A stretch of 64,000 nucleotides of DNA from Paramecium tetraurelia (taxonomy: Eukaryota). Below are positions 47,562 through 52,678 of this stretch, piece after piece (position 1 is the first letter of the stretch; every line of letters begins with the position of its first letter). A model generated the notes under the pieces. It did no database searches and was not told the DNA's origin. It was given only the letters and a program-made list of their open reading frames with translations. The position numbers were made by a program, and so were the translations under genes. The stretch covers positions 62,001 to 126,000 of the forward strand of contig CT868037.1 in assembly GCA_000165425.1 (NCBI GenBank), written 5' to 3'.

Positions 47562-49328
47562 ATGATTATAGACAACCTATTGGATCAGACTCATCGTAAC
47601 ACAAGGAGAGGCATAGTGTTTTCCCATACTCGCAAGACTTTTACAATAAAGCCAGACTCACCCAAAACGAGAGAAGCATGCTTAGCTTTAGGGTATGATC
47701 CCCAAATCTTTTAATTTAAGTAATTGTTTGCTTTTCTAACATTCAGAACTTTCGAAGAGTTTGCTGAACCAGGGATAACTGAGAATGTCTAAAAAATGAG
47801 ATATGATCATTATATGAAAAAGACTGAAAGTAAAACGGAAAATGGATTAAAATAGGTGCTTTGCAAGAAATAAGCAAGTAGCGAAAGGTGATAATCAAAA
47901 AATAAAAAGCGATCACAAATCTACACCTGGAGAAGAGCTATTAAAGAGACGAGGAGTATCTAACAATTGATATTAAAGATTAGTGAATGATTTGATTGAG
48001 ACTTACAATAAGAAGATGAGCAACATCAACAATGTGGAGAACGATGATTCCTATCTTTCATTTGATGAAGAGGATCCTATTCTCGTTTTGGAATAGCAAT
48101 TAGAAAAGGAGATTACAAAGTACAAGAAACAATTGCAAGTGAAAGCCAAAGAAGTTTAACATCAATTGGAGAACGAAAAAAAAAGATAAAAGCTATAACA
48201 CGACATGATTGAAAGAGAGAAAAAGATTGAGGATTTGTAATAGAAGATAGCGCATTAGAAGGAACTGAAAAAGAAAGAACTAAAACGAGCAGCACAGAAA
48301 AAGTTTAATGAGATCAAAGAGAAGGAGAGAGAAAGATAAAAGAAATTGCTTGAAGATAAAAAGAAGTAAGCTGAAAAATTCGAGAAAATGTACATATGCA
48401 TATCTATAAATTAGACGTAAGAAACTGGAGGCAGATGAATTATAGTAAAAGAAAGAACTAGAGGAATAGGAGAGAAGATATCAAGAAAGAAGGCATGCAA
48501 TTCAATAGAGAAAGGAATTGTAAGATAAAGAATACAATTTACACCTGGCTTCAACAATGAATTAGATTGAATAGAAGTGGGCTGAGACTTCATAAAATAA
48601 GGATAGACAAATATGGGAATCCAAATTGGAAAGATTAACTATGAGAAGTACTTTACATGAAGAAAAGTTAAGACAATACAAAGCCAAAACTCAATAAAGA
48701 GAGGAGTCTATGGTGTAGTCAATTGTTAAGAAGTTGGCTACGAAAGAGGATGATCTAAAAGGTAATTATTGAATCTTTTCTCTATAGCCTTAAGGTAATC
48801 TAAAGAAAGGGAGGAGTTATTGAGAATCAAAGAAGAAAAATTAAGAAAAAAGAAGATTGAAAAAAGCTTAAAGAATATCAAATCTTAGTAGTTTGGTAAA
48901 GTTGAAAGTTTGTAAAAGAAATTTCAATTGCTTGAAGATTTCTCTTAAAAAAGAAAAGAGGAAACAGAAATTTAGAAGTACCTAAAGAAAGAGAAAATGA
49001 AATTGAAATAATTGGATCTTGATGAAAATTATTAAAGATAAGAGAGATTGAAGGATCTAAGATTTAAGCAATTGATAAAATCAACTCAATAATTAAATGA
49101 ATAAAAATCATTAGAAAAGATGTCTAATGAACTTGTACGTAGAGCCTAACAGGAACTCTAAAGAAGATTAAAGAAGGATGCCGAAAACCTAGATTAGAGT
49201 TTATTAAATGTTAGTTTAGCTGATGAGAAACTATTGAAGTAATTCAAAATTTTATTTCTAGTTAAAAAGTTAGTTAGCTTGAAAAGAATTTATCAAATCT
49301 GGCTCAAAATTCTAAAATTTTAAGTTGA
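47562..49328 (+). CDS. Coiled-coil protein, CCDC177/CCDC185 (DUF4659)-like N-terminus
   Basis: DSPKTREACLALGYDPQIFQFKTFEEF..KMRYDHY followed by long E/K/Q coiled coil; several short introns; TGA 49326-49328. Confidence 0.7.
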
Positions 49329-49406
49329 AAATGTCTTTATGATGTCATTATTTAATTATAATAAACTTTTATTTTATTTTTAATTTATTACAAAAAGGAA
49401 ACTTCT

Positions 49407-51467
49407 ATGGGATTTGATTAGTAATTGATGGAACGATTTGAACGTCTATTGCCTTTAGCGTTAGAAGTAGAAGGAGGATAAATATATCAATAGGAGTATT
49501 AGAACCAACCCAACAACTCTCGAATTTCATAAGATTCTTATAATCAATCACAATATAAAAGATAACAAAAAAATTAGAACAAAGGAAATAACTAAATTAA
49601 GGATGTTTCCTTACTCACCAAAGAAGATATTAAAGAATATTATTTTGATGTATTTCTCAAAAATAAGTGCGACAAAATTCTAGACTTGAGAACCTGCTAC
49701 TTATATTTTGATATGGTAATTAATTTAGGATCTGAGAATGCTGCTCTAATAATGCAAAAAGCTTGTAATTAAACCTTGGAAGGTGTCATAAATAAAAACA
49801 CTATTTCAATAGCTAATAATTTGGATTAAAATAAATTATAAAAAAGTATTATTGAGGCCAGAAAGAAATAATTTTAAAAGTTTTGTGAAGTGAAACCATT
49901 TTGCAGGAAGTTTGAAAAGGATCTCAATAATAGACTCAGCAAAATCTAAGAACGAATTGCATCGGAACTATCGGATAATGACAGTGCTTCCAGTGCTCCT
50001 AATATTTAGTAAAGAGCTGTTATAAAGAATAATTAAATGAAAGATATTAAATCGAAAATCAATTAGCCAAAGCCTCAAAAGCCTATAACTCAACAAGTAG
50101 TGGTTGATAAACTAAAATAAAATCAAAAGGAAATTCAATAGATTGATAATAAAATAAATCTATAGACATTGAATAAAATCAAAGGAGTAGATAAATAGAC
50201 AGCACAATTTTTAATTGATAAAAATGATAATATTCATTTATCTGACTTAGCAACTGTACTATTAGTTTATAATGACCCAAACTTAGATGATAAACACAAA
50301 GGCATCTGCTTTAGTTTAGATCCACTAGTATTGCCTAACTAGGAAGAATTCAAACAATAGGAGAAAGTGTGTTGGCCAGATAAGTTTGTGAATAGGAATA
50401 TTATACAAGATACTGAATTTGCCTAAATACTATTTGAAACAGATTATTTGCTAAAATTAATGAGTCTTGGGGTTTAAGATGATGGCAAAACTCCTTTTGT
50501 ATATCCGAAAGAACTTTCAGATAAGGGTTTAAAATCATGTATAGCATTTGGATAGGGAAAATTTATAAAATTATTGTGTAGATTTTGGTTAGTACCATAA
50601 TAATGCACTTATCAATTCTAAGATAATAAATATGTAGTGAATGATATAAAAATAATGTGTTAAGCTAGACAAATAGAGAGAGTTAATTCATAATTGTAAG
50701 ATAAGTAAGCTTAGGATATCAACGATATGTCATACTAGTTTGCTGAGAAGTTCACTGAATTGTATGATTAAATAGCAATTCATTATCCAATTTTTAATAG
50801 ACTTAAATAATTGTTCAAGGCTGTTGCTTTAGGTAAATGGATGTATTCGAATAGAGTAAGAGTGGATTACCAAAAATTATAATAATCAATTATAAAAGTT
50901 AATAATCAGCCAAAAGTGATTCCAATTCTAAAGTATGAGTAGATTGGAGATGAAATGAAGATACCAGTTAATTACACAAAAGAGGAGAAGATTCAGAAGG
51001 CAAAAGATTATTTGGTTGAGAAAGGCCATCCAACAACTCAAAATTTAATTGACTAAGTAGTGTAGCAAATTCCTGACTTGAAGGGATATTAGATTTCATA
51101 ATAAGTCTTTTATACTCTTGGAGGTATAGATCCAAATTGTTAGAATATGATTGCTTAGGATGTTGTGAAAGAGAAGAAAGGATAGGAGAGAGAGGAAGAA
51201 GAGGTTTAGGCAGAGATACCCTTCTTCCCTTGTATAAAGTGTAAGGAATGTTAAAGGATGGTTGAAAAATAATTAATTTATATGGATCAAAGTAAATGTT
51301 CAGTTCACAATGATTTTACATGTTTTTTATGTTTAGAATTGGTGACAAACGAAGACAAGGAGCCGAGATGTTGTGTAATAAATAAATTCAAATATATATT
51401 TCACAAAGAATGTAGCGAAGAGTATGAGACAATATTAAATAGAAAGAAAGATATATTAGATTTTTGA
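49407..51467 (+). CDS. Intronless 686-aa protein: GH108 (lysozyme-like)/peptidoglycan-binding module + DUF1598-like domain + C-terminal Zn finger
   Basis: Continuous code-6 frame, 2061 nt. N-terminus FERLLPLALEVEGG..DVSLLTKEDIKEYYFDVFLKNKCDKI..YFDMVINLGSENAALIMQKAC..EGVINKNTI..EARKKQF..FEKDLNNRL; middle FSLDP..DTEFAQILFETDYLLKLMSLG..RFWLVP..FAEKFTELYDQIAIHYPIFNRLKQL..GG; tail CKEC..CSVH..CFLC..FHKEC. Confidence 0.8.
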
Positions 51468-51517
51468 AGTTTATTCTTATAATTGATAGAATTTATGATT
51501 GTATTATTATTGTTTCA

Positions 51518-52678
51518 TCACACAACAATTTCCAAAAGTGCTGCTCTTGTTCTATCATTAAAGTTGTTTTCAAATAGTTCCAACAATTAAAGTACAATCT
51601 AGATTTATTCGTTTCTAGAAACTCTAGCTTGTTCAGCAGCATTGTTGTCCTCCTTACAAGCCACTTCAAATGACTTTCTTTCAACTTCTTTGTTGTCATA
51701 GATGATCTATTAAAGAAGGGCCTATTGTTAGAGATCCTCTAATCTTTATTAAGCAAATTCAGCAGCAGCCTAGTCATCAGCGATTTGACCTGACAATCTG
51801 ACATTCTCTTTCTGGAGTCGGATCCTAAGGGAATTATATGAATGAGACATACAAGTCTTATTAGAAGAACTTCTCTGCCCAATCCTCAGCATACATTTCT
51901 CTCTTTTGGACATCATAAATGCTTTCGATCAAGTCGTTGATGATATCTACAATCACTTAGACATTGTCATTGTCTGAATGTATTTTGGCATCAGAGCATA
52001 ATTCCATAAGTAATGAGGTGATGCTCTTGAATTCTGAATTCTAGGCGTAGTTCTTTACTTTGAATATGATCAACGTATATACTTAGTTGTTCGTGATGAT
52101 CTTTTAATTAAACTAGAGCACCTCCTGGATGTGGGGTTTATAGTTATCTGATGATTTGTTATGCTTATTTTAAACCATTAATTAATCCTATCAACTCATC
52201 TCTTTTTTGTTCATATAATTGATGATCTTTTCTTCTTTGTTCAGATAAGTTTATTTATAATTGATCATTTCTTTGAATTTCAGCATTCTTTTATTCTACT
52301 TAACCTAATTTGTTGGCTAATTCTTCTTATTTTCCTGGGATTTACCTTTCGTAATCAGCCTTAGCTACAACAGCCTTCTCCTGAATTGAATTGATTAATG
52401 AGAACTGATCAGCGCATTAAGCCTACCTTTCTCCGTTGGCCTTACTAGATCGTGCATCTTCATCTCTTAAATCGTAGAAAAGCTTGTTCAACATAGTATA
52501 AATTTATCTGGCAGCATTTCTAATACATTTTAAAGATAGACAAGTACTCTTATGTAAGTTCAAGCTGGATAGTTTGTAGTATTTGGCGACCAAAACTATT
52601 TGAAGCTACTTGTTGTAAAAATTCAGGTTGCTGACCTAAAGCGCAGATCAGAAGGGTAACCAAAATAATGAATTTCAT
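51518..52678 (-). CDS. TMP: Trichocyst matrix protein family member (divergent)
   Basis: Signal peptide MKFIILVTLLICALG; SFGRQILQTIQLEL..ARQIYTMLNKL; conserved Cys in helical blocks; ALVQL motif; short introns; TGA 51518. Confidence 0.75.

What the first reader, a model, noticed from the sequence alone, without database searches (positions are those of the whole stretch)
49407..51467. Candidate novel bacterial-sensing system: GH108-like peptidoglycan module fused to a DUF1598-like domain and a Zn finger
Seen: an intronless 686-codon frame, invisible in the standard-code ORF track except for its last 61 aa, with three distinct domains and no signal peptide or TM segment, while most neighbouring genes of this size carry introns. 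Established: GH108 with its PG_binding_3 partner is a bacterial/phage muramidase module, and DUF1598 is a mostly bacterial domain of unknown function. Inference: a horizontally acquired, now code-6-adapted, cytosolic protein coupling peptidoglycan recognition to an unknown effector domain and a eukaryote-style Zn finger. It could act against escaped food bacteria or intracellular symbionts. I do not recognise this architecture from any described protein.
Basis: partly seen in the sequence, partly recalled or inferred. Interest (0 to 1): 0.88.

Follow-up and report, generated by a model that had tools for sequence, protein, structure and literature searches.

The report
Ciliate lysin-head, unknown-fold, LIM protein
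A Paramecium gene encodes a three-part protein (a worn-down copy of a bacterial cell-wall-cutting enzyme, a widespread domain with no solved structural relative, and a zinc finger) that belongs to a large, apparently undescribed protist family whose members carry different bacteria-attacking heads on the same scaffold.

Summary
Window 49407-51467 (+) is a 686-codon frame under the ciliate code with 53 in-frame TAA/TAG. It is transcribed on its sense strand, with no sign of an intron, signal peptide or TM segment.

All three proposed domains are real but divergent:
- Head, residues 1-190: GH108/TtsA-like fold (PHROG endolysin E 2e-12; Foldseek prob 1.0). Of the Glu/Asp/Thr catalytic triad only Glu remains.
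- Centre ("X"), residues 251-595: a ~300-residue domain. Pfam DUF1598 models only part of it (hhalign E 2e-31 to DUF1598-type proteins). The model is confident (pLDDT 92) and has no solved structural relative.
- Tail, residues 603-686: a shortened LIM-type zinc finger.

The fusion is not unique. At least three Paramecium paralogue clades share it. The X-LIM part also occurs in Tetrahymena, Pseudocohnilembus and unnamed protist sequences, with other heads: three further lysozyme types, an amidase and a lipase. Some tails add CUE or UIM. In prokaryotes X sits in exported lipoproteins, many with YD/RHS repeats.

Best reading: a probably cytosolic, probably non-catalytic peptidoglycan-binding paralogue within a modular antibacterial family. 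The function is inferred, not shown. A TtsA-like lysozyme gained by gene transfer is already reported for P. bursaria. My searches found no description of the family architecture.

The parts
49407..51467 (+). Complete intronless coding sequence, 686 codons plus TGA, ciliate code (53 TAA/TAG = Gln)
   Evidence: RNA coverage without joints
49397..51618 (+). Extent of an identical 2222-nt RNA-seq contig. It starts 10 nt before the ATG; its 3' end overlaps the end of the convergent neighbour, so the true 3' end is not defined.
   Evidence: table 8
49407..49736 (+). Head, catalytic half (residues 1-110): GH108/TtsA-like lysozyme-type subdomain
   Evidence: PHROG phrog_315 endolysin E 2.2e-12, residues 7-210; PDB 2nr7 E 1e-5, residues 8-174; Foldseek to 2ikb, 7dnp, 2is5, 2nr7 E 1e-4 to 1e-3, prob 1.00; Pfam GH108 19.5 bits, below the 21.2 cut-off
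49470..49529 (+). Degenerate catalytic flap (residues 22-41). Glu22 is kept. The Asp position (Glu+5) is Tyr27, the Gly-Gly loop is Asn33-Gln34, and the Thr position (Glu+14) is Asn36. The stretch is Gln/Asn-rich and modelled with low confidence.
   Evidence: alignment A3; TtsA triad Glu14/Asp19/Thr28 from PMC6996933 (passages); pLDDT <50 for residues 24-32
49737..49976 (+). Head, helical substrate-binding half (residues 111-190), equivalent to PG_binding_3. The 'DGxxGxxT' motif is degraded to 'EGVINKNT'.
   Evidence: Pfam PG_binding_3 is not detected in this copy but passes in paralogues P0004, P0005 and P0172.
49977..50156 (+). Gln/Asn/Lys-rich disordered linker (residues 191-250)
   Evidence: pLDDT 37-47; lowest conservation of all segments, 72% / 47% to the two orthologues
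50157..51191 (+). Central X domain (residues 251-595): alpha/beta domain of the DUF1598 superfamily, with no solved structural relative found
   Evidence: AF2 pLDDT 92.1, pTM 0.87; Foldseek PDB best E 0.39; VIA-align 0 of 48161 chains at Z>=5; hhalign to DUF1598-type proteins prob 99.9, E 2.2e-31, 288 columns; 581 library hits at E<=1e-3, mostly to this part
51213..51464 (+). C-terminal LIM-related zinc finger (residues 603-686): IPFFP-CxxC-x17-CxxH-x4-CxxC-...-HxxC followed by a helix. It lacks the second finger of the relatives' Pfam-detected LIM.
   Evidence: An HMM built from the tails of 16 LIM-positive non-Paramecium relatives hits residues 603-670, domain i-E 6.1e-5. The family profile hits only LIM structures in the PDB, best 2cur_A E 6.9e-6. 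pLDDT is about 90. Pfam LIM itself is not detected in this copy.

Best explanation
This is a real, expressed, intronless Paramecium (aurelia complex) gene for a probably cytosolic three-module protein, and it belongs to a wider modular family.

Module 1 is an endolysin-type GH108 (TtsA-like) head. It keeps the fold and the catalytic Glu but has lost the Asp and Thr of the triad and the Gly-Gly flap. It therefore most likely binds peptidoglycan or muropeptides without cutting them efficiently.

Module 2 (X) is a ~300-residue domain of the DUF1598 superfamily. In prokaryotes it is found on exported lipoproteins, often flanked by YD/RHS repeats. I infer that it is a surface- or ligand-binding (or scaffold) module.

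Module 3 is a shortened LIM-type zinc finger, a eukaryotic protein-docking module.

In the wider protist family an X-LIM chassis carries interchangeable heads that act on the bacterial envelope: GH108, pesticin/T4-type lysozyme, phage lysozyme, GH19 and class-3 lipase, sometimes with PG_binding_1. Some members add ubiquitin-binding CUE or UIM tails. One Amidase_3-X protein of unknown origin, without a LIM tail, was also found.

Proposed working: the head and X recognise bacterial envelope material that is exposed to the cytoplasm. The LIM tail ties the complex to host machinery. A paralogue clade with an intact triad supplies the muramidase activity.

Shown: the gene, its transcript, the domain homologies, the loss of the motif, and the family architecture. 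Inferred: cytosolic location, peptidoglycan binding, loss of catalysis, and any immune or sensing role.
For: Gene and transcript.

Head homology: PHROG endolysin E 2.2e-12; PDB 2nr7 E 1e-5. All 8 Foldseek matches at E<=1e-3 are GH108 structures (2ikb, 7dnp SagA, 2is5, 2nr7), and TtsA 6v40 also has prob 1.00.

Triad loss: A3 alignment against the TtsA triad Glu14/Asp19/Thr28 (PMC6996933). The flap has pLDDT <50. Paralogue clade B (P0004-6) keeps Glu, Asn/Asp, Gly-Gly and Thr and passes Pfam GH108 (E 1e-11 to 6e-15) and, for P0004 and P0005, PG_binding_3. In clade C (P0007, P0009) the Glu is replaced by Gln.

Head still constrained: 83%/67% (residues 1-110) and 76%/75% (residues 111-190) identity to the two orthologues, against 72%/47% in the linker. 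This is similar to the intact clade B heads.

X domain.

Family architecture: of 80 hits scanned with Pfam, 17 have LIM and 14 have RHS_repeat. Heads found: GH108 6, Pesticin 3, Phage_lysozyme 3, Lipase_3 2, GH19 1, Amidase_3 1, PG_binding_1 3. One has CUE and one has UIM.

X-domain tree: 42 eukaryote-type rows separate from 36 bacterial-type rows (SH-aLRT 100). The 6 head types on 23 labelled rows need at least 9 changes, where 5 is the minimum possible (similar by FastTree).

Named eukaryotic members: Paramecium spp., Tetrahymena malaccensis, Pseudocohnilembus persalinus, and EukProt and MMETSP transcripts.

Prokaryotic X proteins begin with signal peptides or lipoboxes (judged by eye). The ciliate ones do not.
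Against: No experiment or localisation supports a cytosolic or antibacterial role.

The catalytic Glu is retained, so residual or altered activity cannot be excluded.

X and the tail are more conserved than the head (92-93% against 76-83% to the closest orthologue), so the essential function may lie outside the head.

Expression is low: depth 0.2-14 against 11-84 for the neighbour.

The function of X is unknown. It matched no family in PHROGs or PADLOC.

Ubiquitin-binding tails were seen in only 2 of 80 scanned relatives.

Most eukaryote-type relatives come from unnamed metagenome or transcriptome records. Their eukaryotic origin is inferred from LIM tails and composition. Seven fragment rows were labelled eukaryotic from their place in the first tree, which is circular.
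Confidence: 0.5

Rival explanations
1. The X-LIM part is the working unit, with a housekeeping role (for example cytoskeletal, chaperone-linked or ubiquitin-linked) unrelated to bacteria. In this clade the GH108 head is an evolutionary relic on its way out.
For: X and the tail are the best conserved parts. The head has lost triad residues in clade A and the catalytic Glu in clade C. The clade A head sits on a long stem branch of 1.21. A Tupanvirus protein pairs an X-like fold with a J domain rather than a lysin. Some relatives have no recognisable head.
Against: The head is clearly better conserved than the linker and as well conserved as the intact clade B heads. Every recognised head in the family acts on the bacterial envelope, which is hard to explain by chance.
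Confidence: 0.2
2. It is an active digestive or defensive muramidase that reaches the food vacuole by an unconventional route. The changed flap gives altered rather than lost catalysis.
For: The catalytic Glu22 and the overall GH108 fold are retained. Paramecium feeds on bacteria. A preprint links Paramecium bursaria lysozymes to the control of ingested cells (10.1101/2024.09.14.613017, passages).
Against: There is no signal peptide or TM segment in this protein or in the 9 other eukaryote-type members whose N-termini I printed. LIM, CUE and UIM are cytoplasmic or nuclear modules (established knowledge). The Asp, Thr and Gly-Gly of the flap are all replaced, and the flap is modelled as disordered.
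Confidence: 0.15
3. X is itself an enzyme (a second, unknown envelope-degrading activity), so family members are bifunctional lysins like two-domain endolysins. In this copy X would be the only active part.
For: Nearly invariant polar residues across eukaryotic and bacterial members: Ser303, Thr336, Asp346, Lys350, Arg392, plus Trp394, Phe445, Gly572/573. X is exported in prokaryotes and sits next to lytic heads.
Against: No match to any enzyme family or fold. No Cys or His is invariant across the family.
Confidence: 0.12
4. It is an annotation artefact or a decaying pseudogene.
For: Low expression. A degraded catalytic motif. A related P. sonneborni model, P0008, looks fragmentary.
Against: A 686-codon open frame. 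86% and 74% identical full-length orthologues in two other species. Sense-strand polyA+ RNA across the whole frame. Confident folds for all three domains.
Confidence: 0.02

Closest known systems
GH108 / TtsA-like muramidases (Salmonella Typhi TtsA 6v40, Sen1395 6v3z, Brucella SagA 7dnp, Neisseria NMB1012 2ikb, P. gingivalis PG_0293 2nr7) and phage endolysins of PHROG 315
   Same: The same two-part fold: a flap-bearing catalytic subdomain plus a helical substrate-binding bundle. The catalytic Glu in the 'EGG' motif is kept. Sequence homology is significant.
   Different: The bacterial and phage proteins are stand-alone proteins of about 170-200 residues with a Glu/Asp/Thr triad. Here the Asp, Thr and Gly-Gly are replaced by a Gln/Asn-rich stretch. 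The head is also fused to a ~300-residue X domain and a LIM-type finger, and it is read in the ciliate code.
'TTSA', the TtsA-like lysozyme of Paramecium bursaria reported as a prokaryote-to-eukaryote transfer (bioRxiv 10.1101/2024.09.14.613017; passages seen only, its supplements are closed)
   Same: A GH108/TtsA-like gene in a Paramecium nuclear genome with in-frame TAA/TAG, interpreted as domesticated bacterial glycan-processing.
   Different: The passages I saw do not mention the fusion to X and LIM, the paralogue clades, the loss of the triad or the wider family. I did not test orthology to the window gene.
Pfam DUF1598 (PF07643) proteins and YD/RHS-repeat lipoproteins of bacteria
   Same: The central domain is homologous (hhalign E 2.2e-31). 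The motifs FSLDP, LFEADxLLK, WxRxW, YPxFxRLKxLxKAxALAKW and GGVD are shared.
   Different: The Pfam model covers only about 84 of ~300 residues. The bacterial proteins are exported, often carry two tandem X copies or YD repeats, and have no lytic head or LIM. The window protein has no YD repeat.
Modular phage endolysins (enzymatic domain plus cell-wall-binding domain) and other domesticated antibacterial genes of eukaryotes (dae amidases, GH25 lysozymes; these two are recalled from memory, not checked here)
   Same: An interchangeable lytic head on a constant partner module, and bacterial or phage enzymes reused by a eukaryote.
   Different: The partner here is X-LIM, which is not a known cell-wall-binding domain. 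The proteins lack secretion signals. The head of this copy is probably inactive.
LIM-domain proteins (FHL, CRP, PINCH, LMO)
   Same: A tandem zinc-knuckle pattern. The family profile matches LIM structures, best E 6.9e-6.
   Different: The Paramecium tail has a pre-LIM CxxC..CxxH knuckle plus only the first LIM finger, and Pfam LIM is not detected in this copy.

Membership tests
GH108 (Pfam PF05838; TtsA-like N-acetylmuramidase) | Significant sequence homology to family members | tested here: met
   PHROG 315 endolysin E 2.2e-12; PDB 2nr7 E 1e-5. An HMM of family heads gave E 4.6e-64, but the window head is in that model, so this is not independent.
GH108 (Pfam PF05838; TtsA-like N-acetylmuramidase) | Score at or above Pfam's gathering threshold (21.2 bits) | tested here: not met
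   19.5 bits, E 0.0015. Paralogues P0004-6 score 41.9-55.9 bits.
GH108 (Pfam PF05838; TtsA-like N-acetylmuramidase) | Two-subdomain fold (flap-bearing catalytic part plus helical substrate-binding bundle, the PG_binding_3 part) | tested here: met
   Foldseek on the full-length model: 8 of 8 matches at E<=1e-3 are GH108 structures, target TM 0.51-0.65, 127-152 aligned columns. Pfam PG_binding_3 itself is not detected in this copy.
GH108 (Pfam PF05838; TtsA-like N-acetylmuramidase) | Lysozyme-like catalytic triad Glu/Asp/Thr (TtsA Glu14, Asp19, Thr28; PMC6996933) | tested here: not met
   Glu22 is present; Tyr27 stands at the Asp position and Asn36 at the Thr position; Gly-Gly is replaced by Asn-Gln.
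GH108 (Pfam PF05838; TtsA-like N-acetylmuramidase) | Muramidase activity on peptidoglycan | not testable with these tools
   Needs a zymogram or turbidity assay with the recombinant head.
DUF1598 (Pfam PF07643) | Score at or above the gathering threshold (25 bits) | tested here: not met
   14.9 bits, E 0.032, residues 333-359 matching profile positions 51-77 of 84. The same weak match recurs at the same place in all 7 Paramecium relatives scanned.
DUF1598 (Pfam PF07643) | Profile-level homology to proteins that pass the family threshold | tested here: met
   hhalign A2 vs A8: prob 99.9, E 2.2e-31, 288 columns. A8 includes P0174, which passes at 37.8 bits. The A4 profile finds P0174 at E 5.3e-8 in 5.8e9 sequences.
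LIM domain (Pfam PF00412) | Pfam LIM match | tested here: not met
   No LIM row for P0001 even at E<=10. 17 of 80 relatives match at E<=1e-3.
LIM domain (Pfam PF00412) | Homology of the tail to LIM-bearing tails, and a tandem Cys/His zinc-ligand pattern | tested here: met
   An HMM of 16 LIM-positive tails hits residues 603-670, i-E 6.1e-5 in a 14-sequence search. The family profile hits LIM structures only. The pattern CxxC-x17-CxxH-x4-CxxC-...-HxxC is read directly from the sequence. The second finger of the relatives' LIM is absent.
RHS / YD-repeat polymorphic toxins | YD repeats and a C-terminal toxin after a DPxGL-type cleavage motif | tested here: not met
   0 YD motifs and 0 DPxG[LWMI] motifs in P0001. 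Only the X domain is shared.
HGT-derived TtsA-like lysozyme of Paramecium (preprint 'TTSA') | Orthology to the P. bursaria gene; bacterial sister group in a head phylogeny | tested here: inconclusive
   Head tree of 27 rows: only 4 of 24 inner branches are supported, and Paramecium clades A, B and C are not resolved against stand-alone GH108 proteins.

The most novel reading that the evidence does not exclude
The gene is one member of a previously unrecognised cell-autonomous antibacterial system of ciliates and other protists. Cytosolic proteins combine phage-endolysin-type or lipase heads with a bacterial-surface-binding domain of novel fold (X), co-opted once from exported bacterial YD/RHS-type lipoproteins. 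They are wired to the host through LIM, CUE and UIM modules, in a xenophagy-like, ubiquitin-linked way. Heads are swapped repeatedly in an arms race with prey and symbionts. Catalytically dead paralogues such as this one act as peptidoglycan sensors or regulators for the active ones.
Probability: 0.2. Interest if true: 0.85.

Novelty: new variant of a known kind. Interest (0 to 1): 0.66.

Why it matters
Little is known about how free-living protists deal with bacteria that escape digestion or settle inside the cell. This family shows repeated recruitment of bacteria-killing enzyme heads (four lysozyme families and a lipase) onto one conserved chassis with eukaryotic docking modules; an amidase-X protein of unknown origin was also found. 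That gives a concrete, testable candidate for a protist innate-defence or bacterial-handling toolkit. It is testable in Paramecium and Tetrahymena, where RNAi, GFP tagging and natural intracellular bacteria are available.

It also defines the true extent (~300 residues) and breadth of a 'DUF' domain. The domain is confidently modelled, has no solved structural relative, and occurs in bacteria, an archaeal MAG, protists and a giant virus.

The window copy offers a natural pair with its paralogue: a triad-less head against an intact head. That pair can be used to study how a lytic enzyme turns into a binding module.

Tried and rejected
- Whole-genome search for ohnologues: no genome is held for this window. 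Paralogue clades were therefore inferred from other Paramecium species. tblastn of 5 family members against the window found only this one copy.
- ESM Atlas search with the X domain: no usable hit.
- Earlier findings of this scan, by place and by sequence: nothing.
- The search for homologous proteins: the word index is swamped by low-complexity candidates, so it returned only Paramecium hits plus P0174. The taxonomic breadth rests on the exhaustive representative search and on names from 30 cluster look-ups.
- Fold searches for X. Foldseek PDB: 0 matches at E<=1e-3, and the top rows (serpins, RNA polymerase) have TM <=0.16 and are noise. VIA-align wide: best Z 4.4 over 44 residues, a helix pair only. 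The profile against PDB sequences matched LIM domains only. Caveat: sub-domains of X were not folded and searched alone, so a known sub-fold is not excluded.
- BFVD gave one real-looking match, a Tupanvirus J-domain protein, E 4.2e-11. I did not follow it up.
- X homodimer test with complex prediction: no verdict (score 0.00; the partner's own fold was uncertain without the alignment). It says nothing either way.
- GH108 head phylogeny: unresolved star tree. It cannot decide between one capture and several, or identify a donor.
- X in viral contigs using bacterial patterns: 25 pattern matches, 0 confirmed.
- PADLOC: 0 families for 8 proteins. PHROGs: nothing for X in 4 bacterial X proteins.
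- RanBP2/NZF-type fingers that I thought I saw by eye in the P0060 tail were not confirmed by Pfam. Only P0029 has a sub-threshold 16.5-bit match. I dropped this as evidence.
- Literature. 'DUF1598': 0 papers. 'Paramecium' + 'GH108': 2 versions of an unrelated phage WO paper. Ciliate + LIM domain + lysozyme + HGT, and LIM domain + peptidoglycan + Tetrahymena/Paramecium: no paper describing this architecture among those listed. Subscription journals and bioRxiv supplements were not searchable.
- Neighbourhoods of X genes in prokaryotic loci L002, L004 and L007 gave no consistent partner (F5/8 type C, WD40, S-layer/NosD proteins).
Full report
1. THE OBSERVATION

Under the ciliate code (table 6), window 49407-51467 (+) is a single 686-codon frame from ATG to TGA, with 53 in-frame TAA/TAG read as Gln. 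The frame is preceded by about 60 AT-rich bases after the end of the upstream gene. The closest database proteins are from Paramecium primaurelia (86%) and P. sonneborni (74%), so the window is from the Paramecium aurelia complex.

Three stranded oligo-dT RNA-seq runs cover every 104-nt bin from 49316 to 51499, in one orientation, at depth 0.2-14. They show no joints, indels or loose ends inside the frame. The same runs show loose ends at 51824/51852 in the convergent downstream gene. These bracket a 28-nt GT..AG intron on the - strand (51825-51852). This has two consequences. The data can reveal introns. It also fixes the library's strand sense: first mates read opposite to the RNA, so the reads over the ORF are sense transcripts of the + strand. 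One RNA-seq contig of 2222 nt equals 49397-51618 with no difference. The gene is therefore real, transcribed at a low level, and intronless.

The maximum 19-residue hydropathy is 1.17, and the protein starts directly with the first helix of the head, so there is no TM segment and no signal peptide (judged by eye).

2. THE HEAD (RESIDUES 1-190)

In this copy Pfam GH108 scores 19.5 bits against a 21.2-bit cut-off, PG_binding_3 is not detected, and NCBIfam's holin-associated muramidase scores far below its cut-off. Homology is nevertheless secure:
- PHROG 315 (endolysin) E 2.2e-12 over residues 7-210.
- PDB 2nr7 E 1e-5 over residues 8-174.
- In the full-length AlphaFold model (mean pLDDT 85.3), all 8 Foldseek matches at E<=1e-3 are GH108 structures: NMB1012 2ikb/2is5, Brucella SagA 7dnp and 2nr7. 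Sen1395 and TtsA follow at prob 1.00.

The TtsA paper gives the catalytic triad as Glu14, Asp19 and Thr28, on a flap loop (PMC6996933, passages). In an alignment of 21 heads the canonical motif reads EGGxV(D/N)DxxDxGGxTNxGI. The window protein keeps Glu22. It has Tyr27 at the Asp position, Asn33-Gln34 for Gly-Gly, Asn36 at the Thr position, and Arg39 for the following Gly. The DGxxGxxT motif of the second half is EGVINKNT. The flap is modelled with pLDDT <50 for residues 24-32.

3. PARALOGUE CLADES

Paramecium species hold at least three clades with the same overall layout.
- Clade A: the window protein, P0002 and P0003.
- Clade B: P0004-6, and the truncated P. tetraurelia model P0173 by its X domain. 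Clade B keeps Glu, Asn/Asp, Gly-Gly and Thr. It passes Pfam GH108 (E 1e-11 to 6e-15) and, for P0004 and P0005, PG_binding_3.
- Clade C: P0007, P0009 and P0172. In P0007 and P0009 the catalytic Glu is replaced by Gln.

In the X-domain tree P0007 groups with clade B and P0009/P0172 form their own branch, so clade C is defined here by its head motif.

The clade A head is still constrained. Identity to the two orthologues is 83%/67% (residues 1-110) and 76%/75% (111-190), against 72%/47% in the linker. This is similar to the intact heads within clade B (83%/75% and 76%/71%). I infer a head that has kept a function, most simply substrate binding, while losing efficient catalysis. This is an inference, because the Glu remains.

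4. THE CENTRAL DOMAIN X (RESIDUES ~251-595)

Pfam gives only a weak DUF1598 match (14.9 bits, residues 333-359). It recurs at the same place in all 7 Paramecium relatives scanned. An exhaustive phmmer search of 1.84e9 representatives found 581 proteins at E<=1e-3 (59 at <=1e-10, 14 at <=1e-30), most of them matching only residues ~270-515.

A profile-profile comparison links the mainly eukaryote-type alignment A2 to 12 bacterial DUF1598-type proteins: probability 99.9, E 2.2e-31, 288 columns. That set includes P0174, which passes Pfam's threshold at 37.8 bits. P0174 is also found by the family profile at E 5.3e-8 in 5.8e9 sequences. So X is a ~300-residue domain of which Pfam DUF1598 models about 84 residues.

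Shared motifs are FSLDP, GTxFGxxLFEADxLLK, WxRxW, FAxxFTxxYDxIAxxYPxFxRLKxLxKAxALAKW and GGVD. Nearly invariant residues are Ser303, Thr336, Asp346, Lys350, Gly355, Arg392, Trp394, Phe445 and Gly572/573.

The AlphaFold model of residues 245-600 is confident (pLDDT 92.1, pTM 0.87). It is an alpha/beta domain with three very long strands and a helical layer. I found no solved relative:
- Foldseek PDB best E 0.39.
- VIA-align: 0 of 48161 chains with Z>=5.
- The profile against PDB sequences matched only LIM domains, through the tail columns.
- BFVD gave one match, a Tupanvirus 'J domain-containing protein' (E 4.2e-11, prob 1.00, 349 columns).

Sub-domains were not searched alone, so 'novel fold' remains provisional.

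5. THE TAIL (RESIDUES 603-686)

The pattern is IPFFP-CxxC-x17-CxxH-x4-CxxC-...-HxxC, followed by a helix. Pfam LIM is not detected in this copy, but 17 of 80 scanned relatives carry Pfam LIM after X. An HMM built from the tails of 16 such non-Paramecium relatives matches residues 603-670 (i-E 6.1e-5) and matches the paralogues better (1e-6 to 3e-9). The alignment shows that the Paramecium tail has the pre-LIM knuckle and the first LIM finger but lacks the second. UniRef names the P. tetraurelia paralogue model 'LIM zinc-binding domain-containing'.

6. THE FAMILY

Pfam scans of 80 hits show two classes.

(a) Proteins of about 600-1000 residues without signal peptides. X is preceded by a head and followed by a tail.
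- Heads: GH108 (6), pesticin/T4-type lysozyme (3, one below the cut-off), phage lysozyme (3, one below the cut-off), GH19 (1), class-3 lipase (2) or Amidase_3 (1), with PG_binding_1 in 3. The Amidase_3 protein (P0077, origin unknown) has no LIM tail and grouped with bacterial-type X domains in the trees.
- Tails: LIM (17), plus CUE (P0017) or UIM (P0094).
- PHROGs confirms that the heads are endolysin-like, for example P0013 at E 3e-62.
- Named members are Paramecium spp. (including a phage-lysozyme-headed P. sonneborni protein, P0037), Tetrahymena malaccensis, Pseudocohnilembus persalinus, and EukProt and MMETSP transcripts. Many others lie on ~3-kb contigs of unnamed metagenomes.

(b) Prokaryotic proteins. 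These start with signal peptides or lipoboxes. They are stand-alone X proteins, proteins with two tandem X copies, or 1400-1800-residue YD/RHS-repeat proteins with X in the middle (14 of 80 with RHS_repeat). Genomic examples come from MAGs of Chlorobiaceae, Rhizomicrobium, WOR-3, Bryobacteraceae, Polyangiaceae and Alphaproteobacteria, a Peptococcaceae bacterium genome, and a Ca. Methanoperedens MAG.

In an X-domain tree (IQ-TREE quick, 78 rows) the 42 eukaryote-type rows separate from 36 bacterial-type rows with SH-aLRT 100. The six head types on 23 labelled rows need at least 9 changes, where 5 is the minimum possible. So heads have been exchanged repeatedly on one chassis. A FastTree of 127 rows agrees, with a 98-supported set of 43 rows holding all 34 LIM-tailed rows.

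Caveats: the root is not known; 7 fragment rows were labelled eukaryotic from the first tree; composition is heterogeneous. The GH108 head tree was unresolved.

7. HOW IT MOST LIKELY WORKS

Shown: the domain identities, the motif loss, the absence of export signals in the ciliate proteins and their presence in the prokaryotic ones, and the head diversity.

Inferred: the family is a cytoplasmic toolkit aimed at the bacterial envelope. The head supplies recognition or cleavage of peptidoglycan or membrane lipid. X supplies a conserved binding or scaffold function inherited from exported bacterial surface proteins. LIM (and CUE/UIM in some members) supplies the connection to host proteins. The window copy would be the non-catalytic, binding or regulatory paralogue of the active clade B enzyme.

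Rivals:
- X-LIM has a bacteria-unrelated role and the head is a relic.
- The protein is an active digestive enzyme exported unconventionally.
- X is itself an enzyme.

I put the architectural statements at about 0.95 and the proposed mechanism at about 0.35.

8. COMPARISON WITH WHAT IS KNOWN, AND NOVELTY

A TtsA-like lysozyme acquired by gene transfer has been reported for Paramecium bursaria (bioRxiv 10.1101/2024.09.14.613017; passages only). UniRef already labels some paralogues 'TtsA-like GH108 domain-containing'. The GH108 element is therefore not new.

My searches found no description of the following:
- the fusion to a DUF1598-superfamily domain and a LIM finger;
- the triad-less paralogue clades;
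- the head-swapping family across ciliates and other protists;
- the link to prokaryotic YD/RHS lipoproteins;
- the absence of any solved relative for X.

I classify the finding as a new variant of a known kind, namely domesticated bacteriolytic enzymes in eukaryotes. It has a real chance of representing something larger.

9. VERDICT

Interest 0.66.

Noticed in passing
window 51500-52000 (- strand): The convergent downstream gene is expressed about 10 times more strongly than the ORF. It has a 28-nt GT..AG intron at 51825-51852, seen as loose ends in the RNA reads. Eight positions (for example 51587, 51619, 51885) show a second base in about 10-50% of reads in all three runs. This may reflect reads from a near-identical ohnologue or an allele.
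   Followed up: partly
BFVD entry A0A6N1NXY0 (Tupanvirus soda lake): A giant-virus 'J domain-containing protein' is the only structure-library match to the X domain (E 4.2e-11, 349 aligned columns, 20% identity). X therefore also occurs in a virus of amoebae, paired with an Hsp70 co-chaperone module.
   Followed up: no
proteins P0046, P0052, P0056, P0093, P0095, P0140, P0149, P0152 (alignment A8): Bacterial DUF1598-type proteins of 900-1250 residues carry two tandem copies of the ~300-residue X domain, followed by a YD-like C-terminal region. The Pfam DUF1598 model (84 positions) covers only a fraction of one copy.
   Followed up: partly
L004:5844-10034 (Ca. Methanoperedens MAG contig): A 1396-residue lipobox-bearing protein with YD repeats on both sides of an X domain lies on a contig assigned to an archaeon, next to an S-layer/NosD/FGE-sulfatase protein. 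The binning was not checked.
   Followed up: no
P0173 (P. tetraurelia, 374 aa), P0008 (P. sonneborni, 398 aa), P0006 (P. sonneborni, 616 aa): P0173 lacks the head and the start of X and looks like a truncated gene model. P0008 aligns only in pieces and may be a decaying copy. P0006 lacks about 36 residues of the PG_binding_3 part, possibly through a wrongly called intron.
   Followed up: no
P0014 (Tetrahymena malaccensis, 873 aa): Besides PG_binding_1, its N-terminus matches the GH108 head HMM (E 4e-10, HMM positions 34-135 only). Tetrahymena may therefore also carry a degenerate GH108 head on the X-LIM chassis.
   Followed up: partly
P0031 (179 aa, unnamed source): A stand-alone GH108+PG_binding_3 protein with AT-rich-type composition shares with Paramecium clade C an insertion before the 'KDV' motif. 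It could be a ciliate stand-alone lysin or a close donor-like sequence. Its origin is unknown.
   Followed up: no
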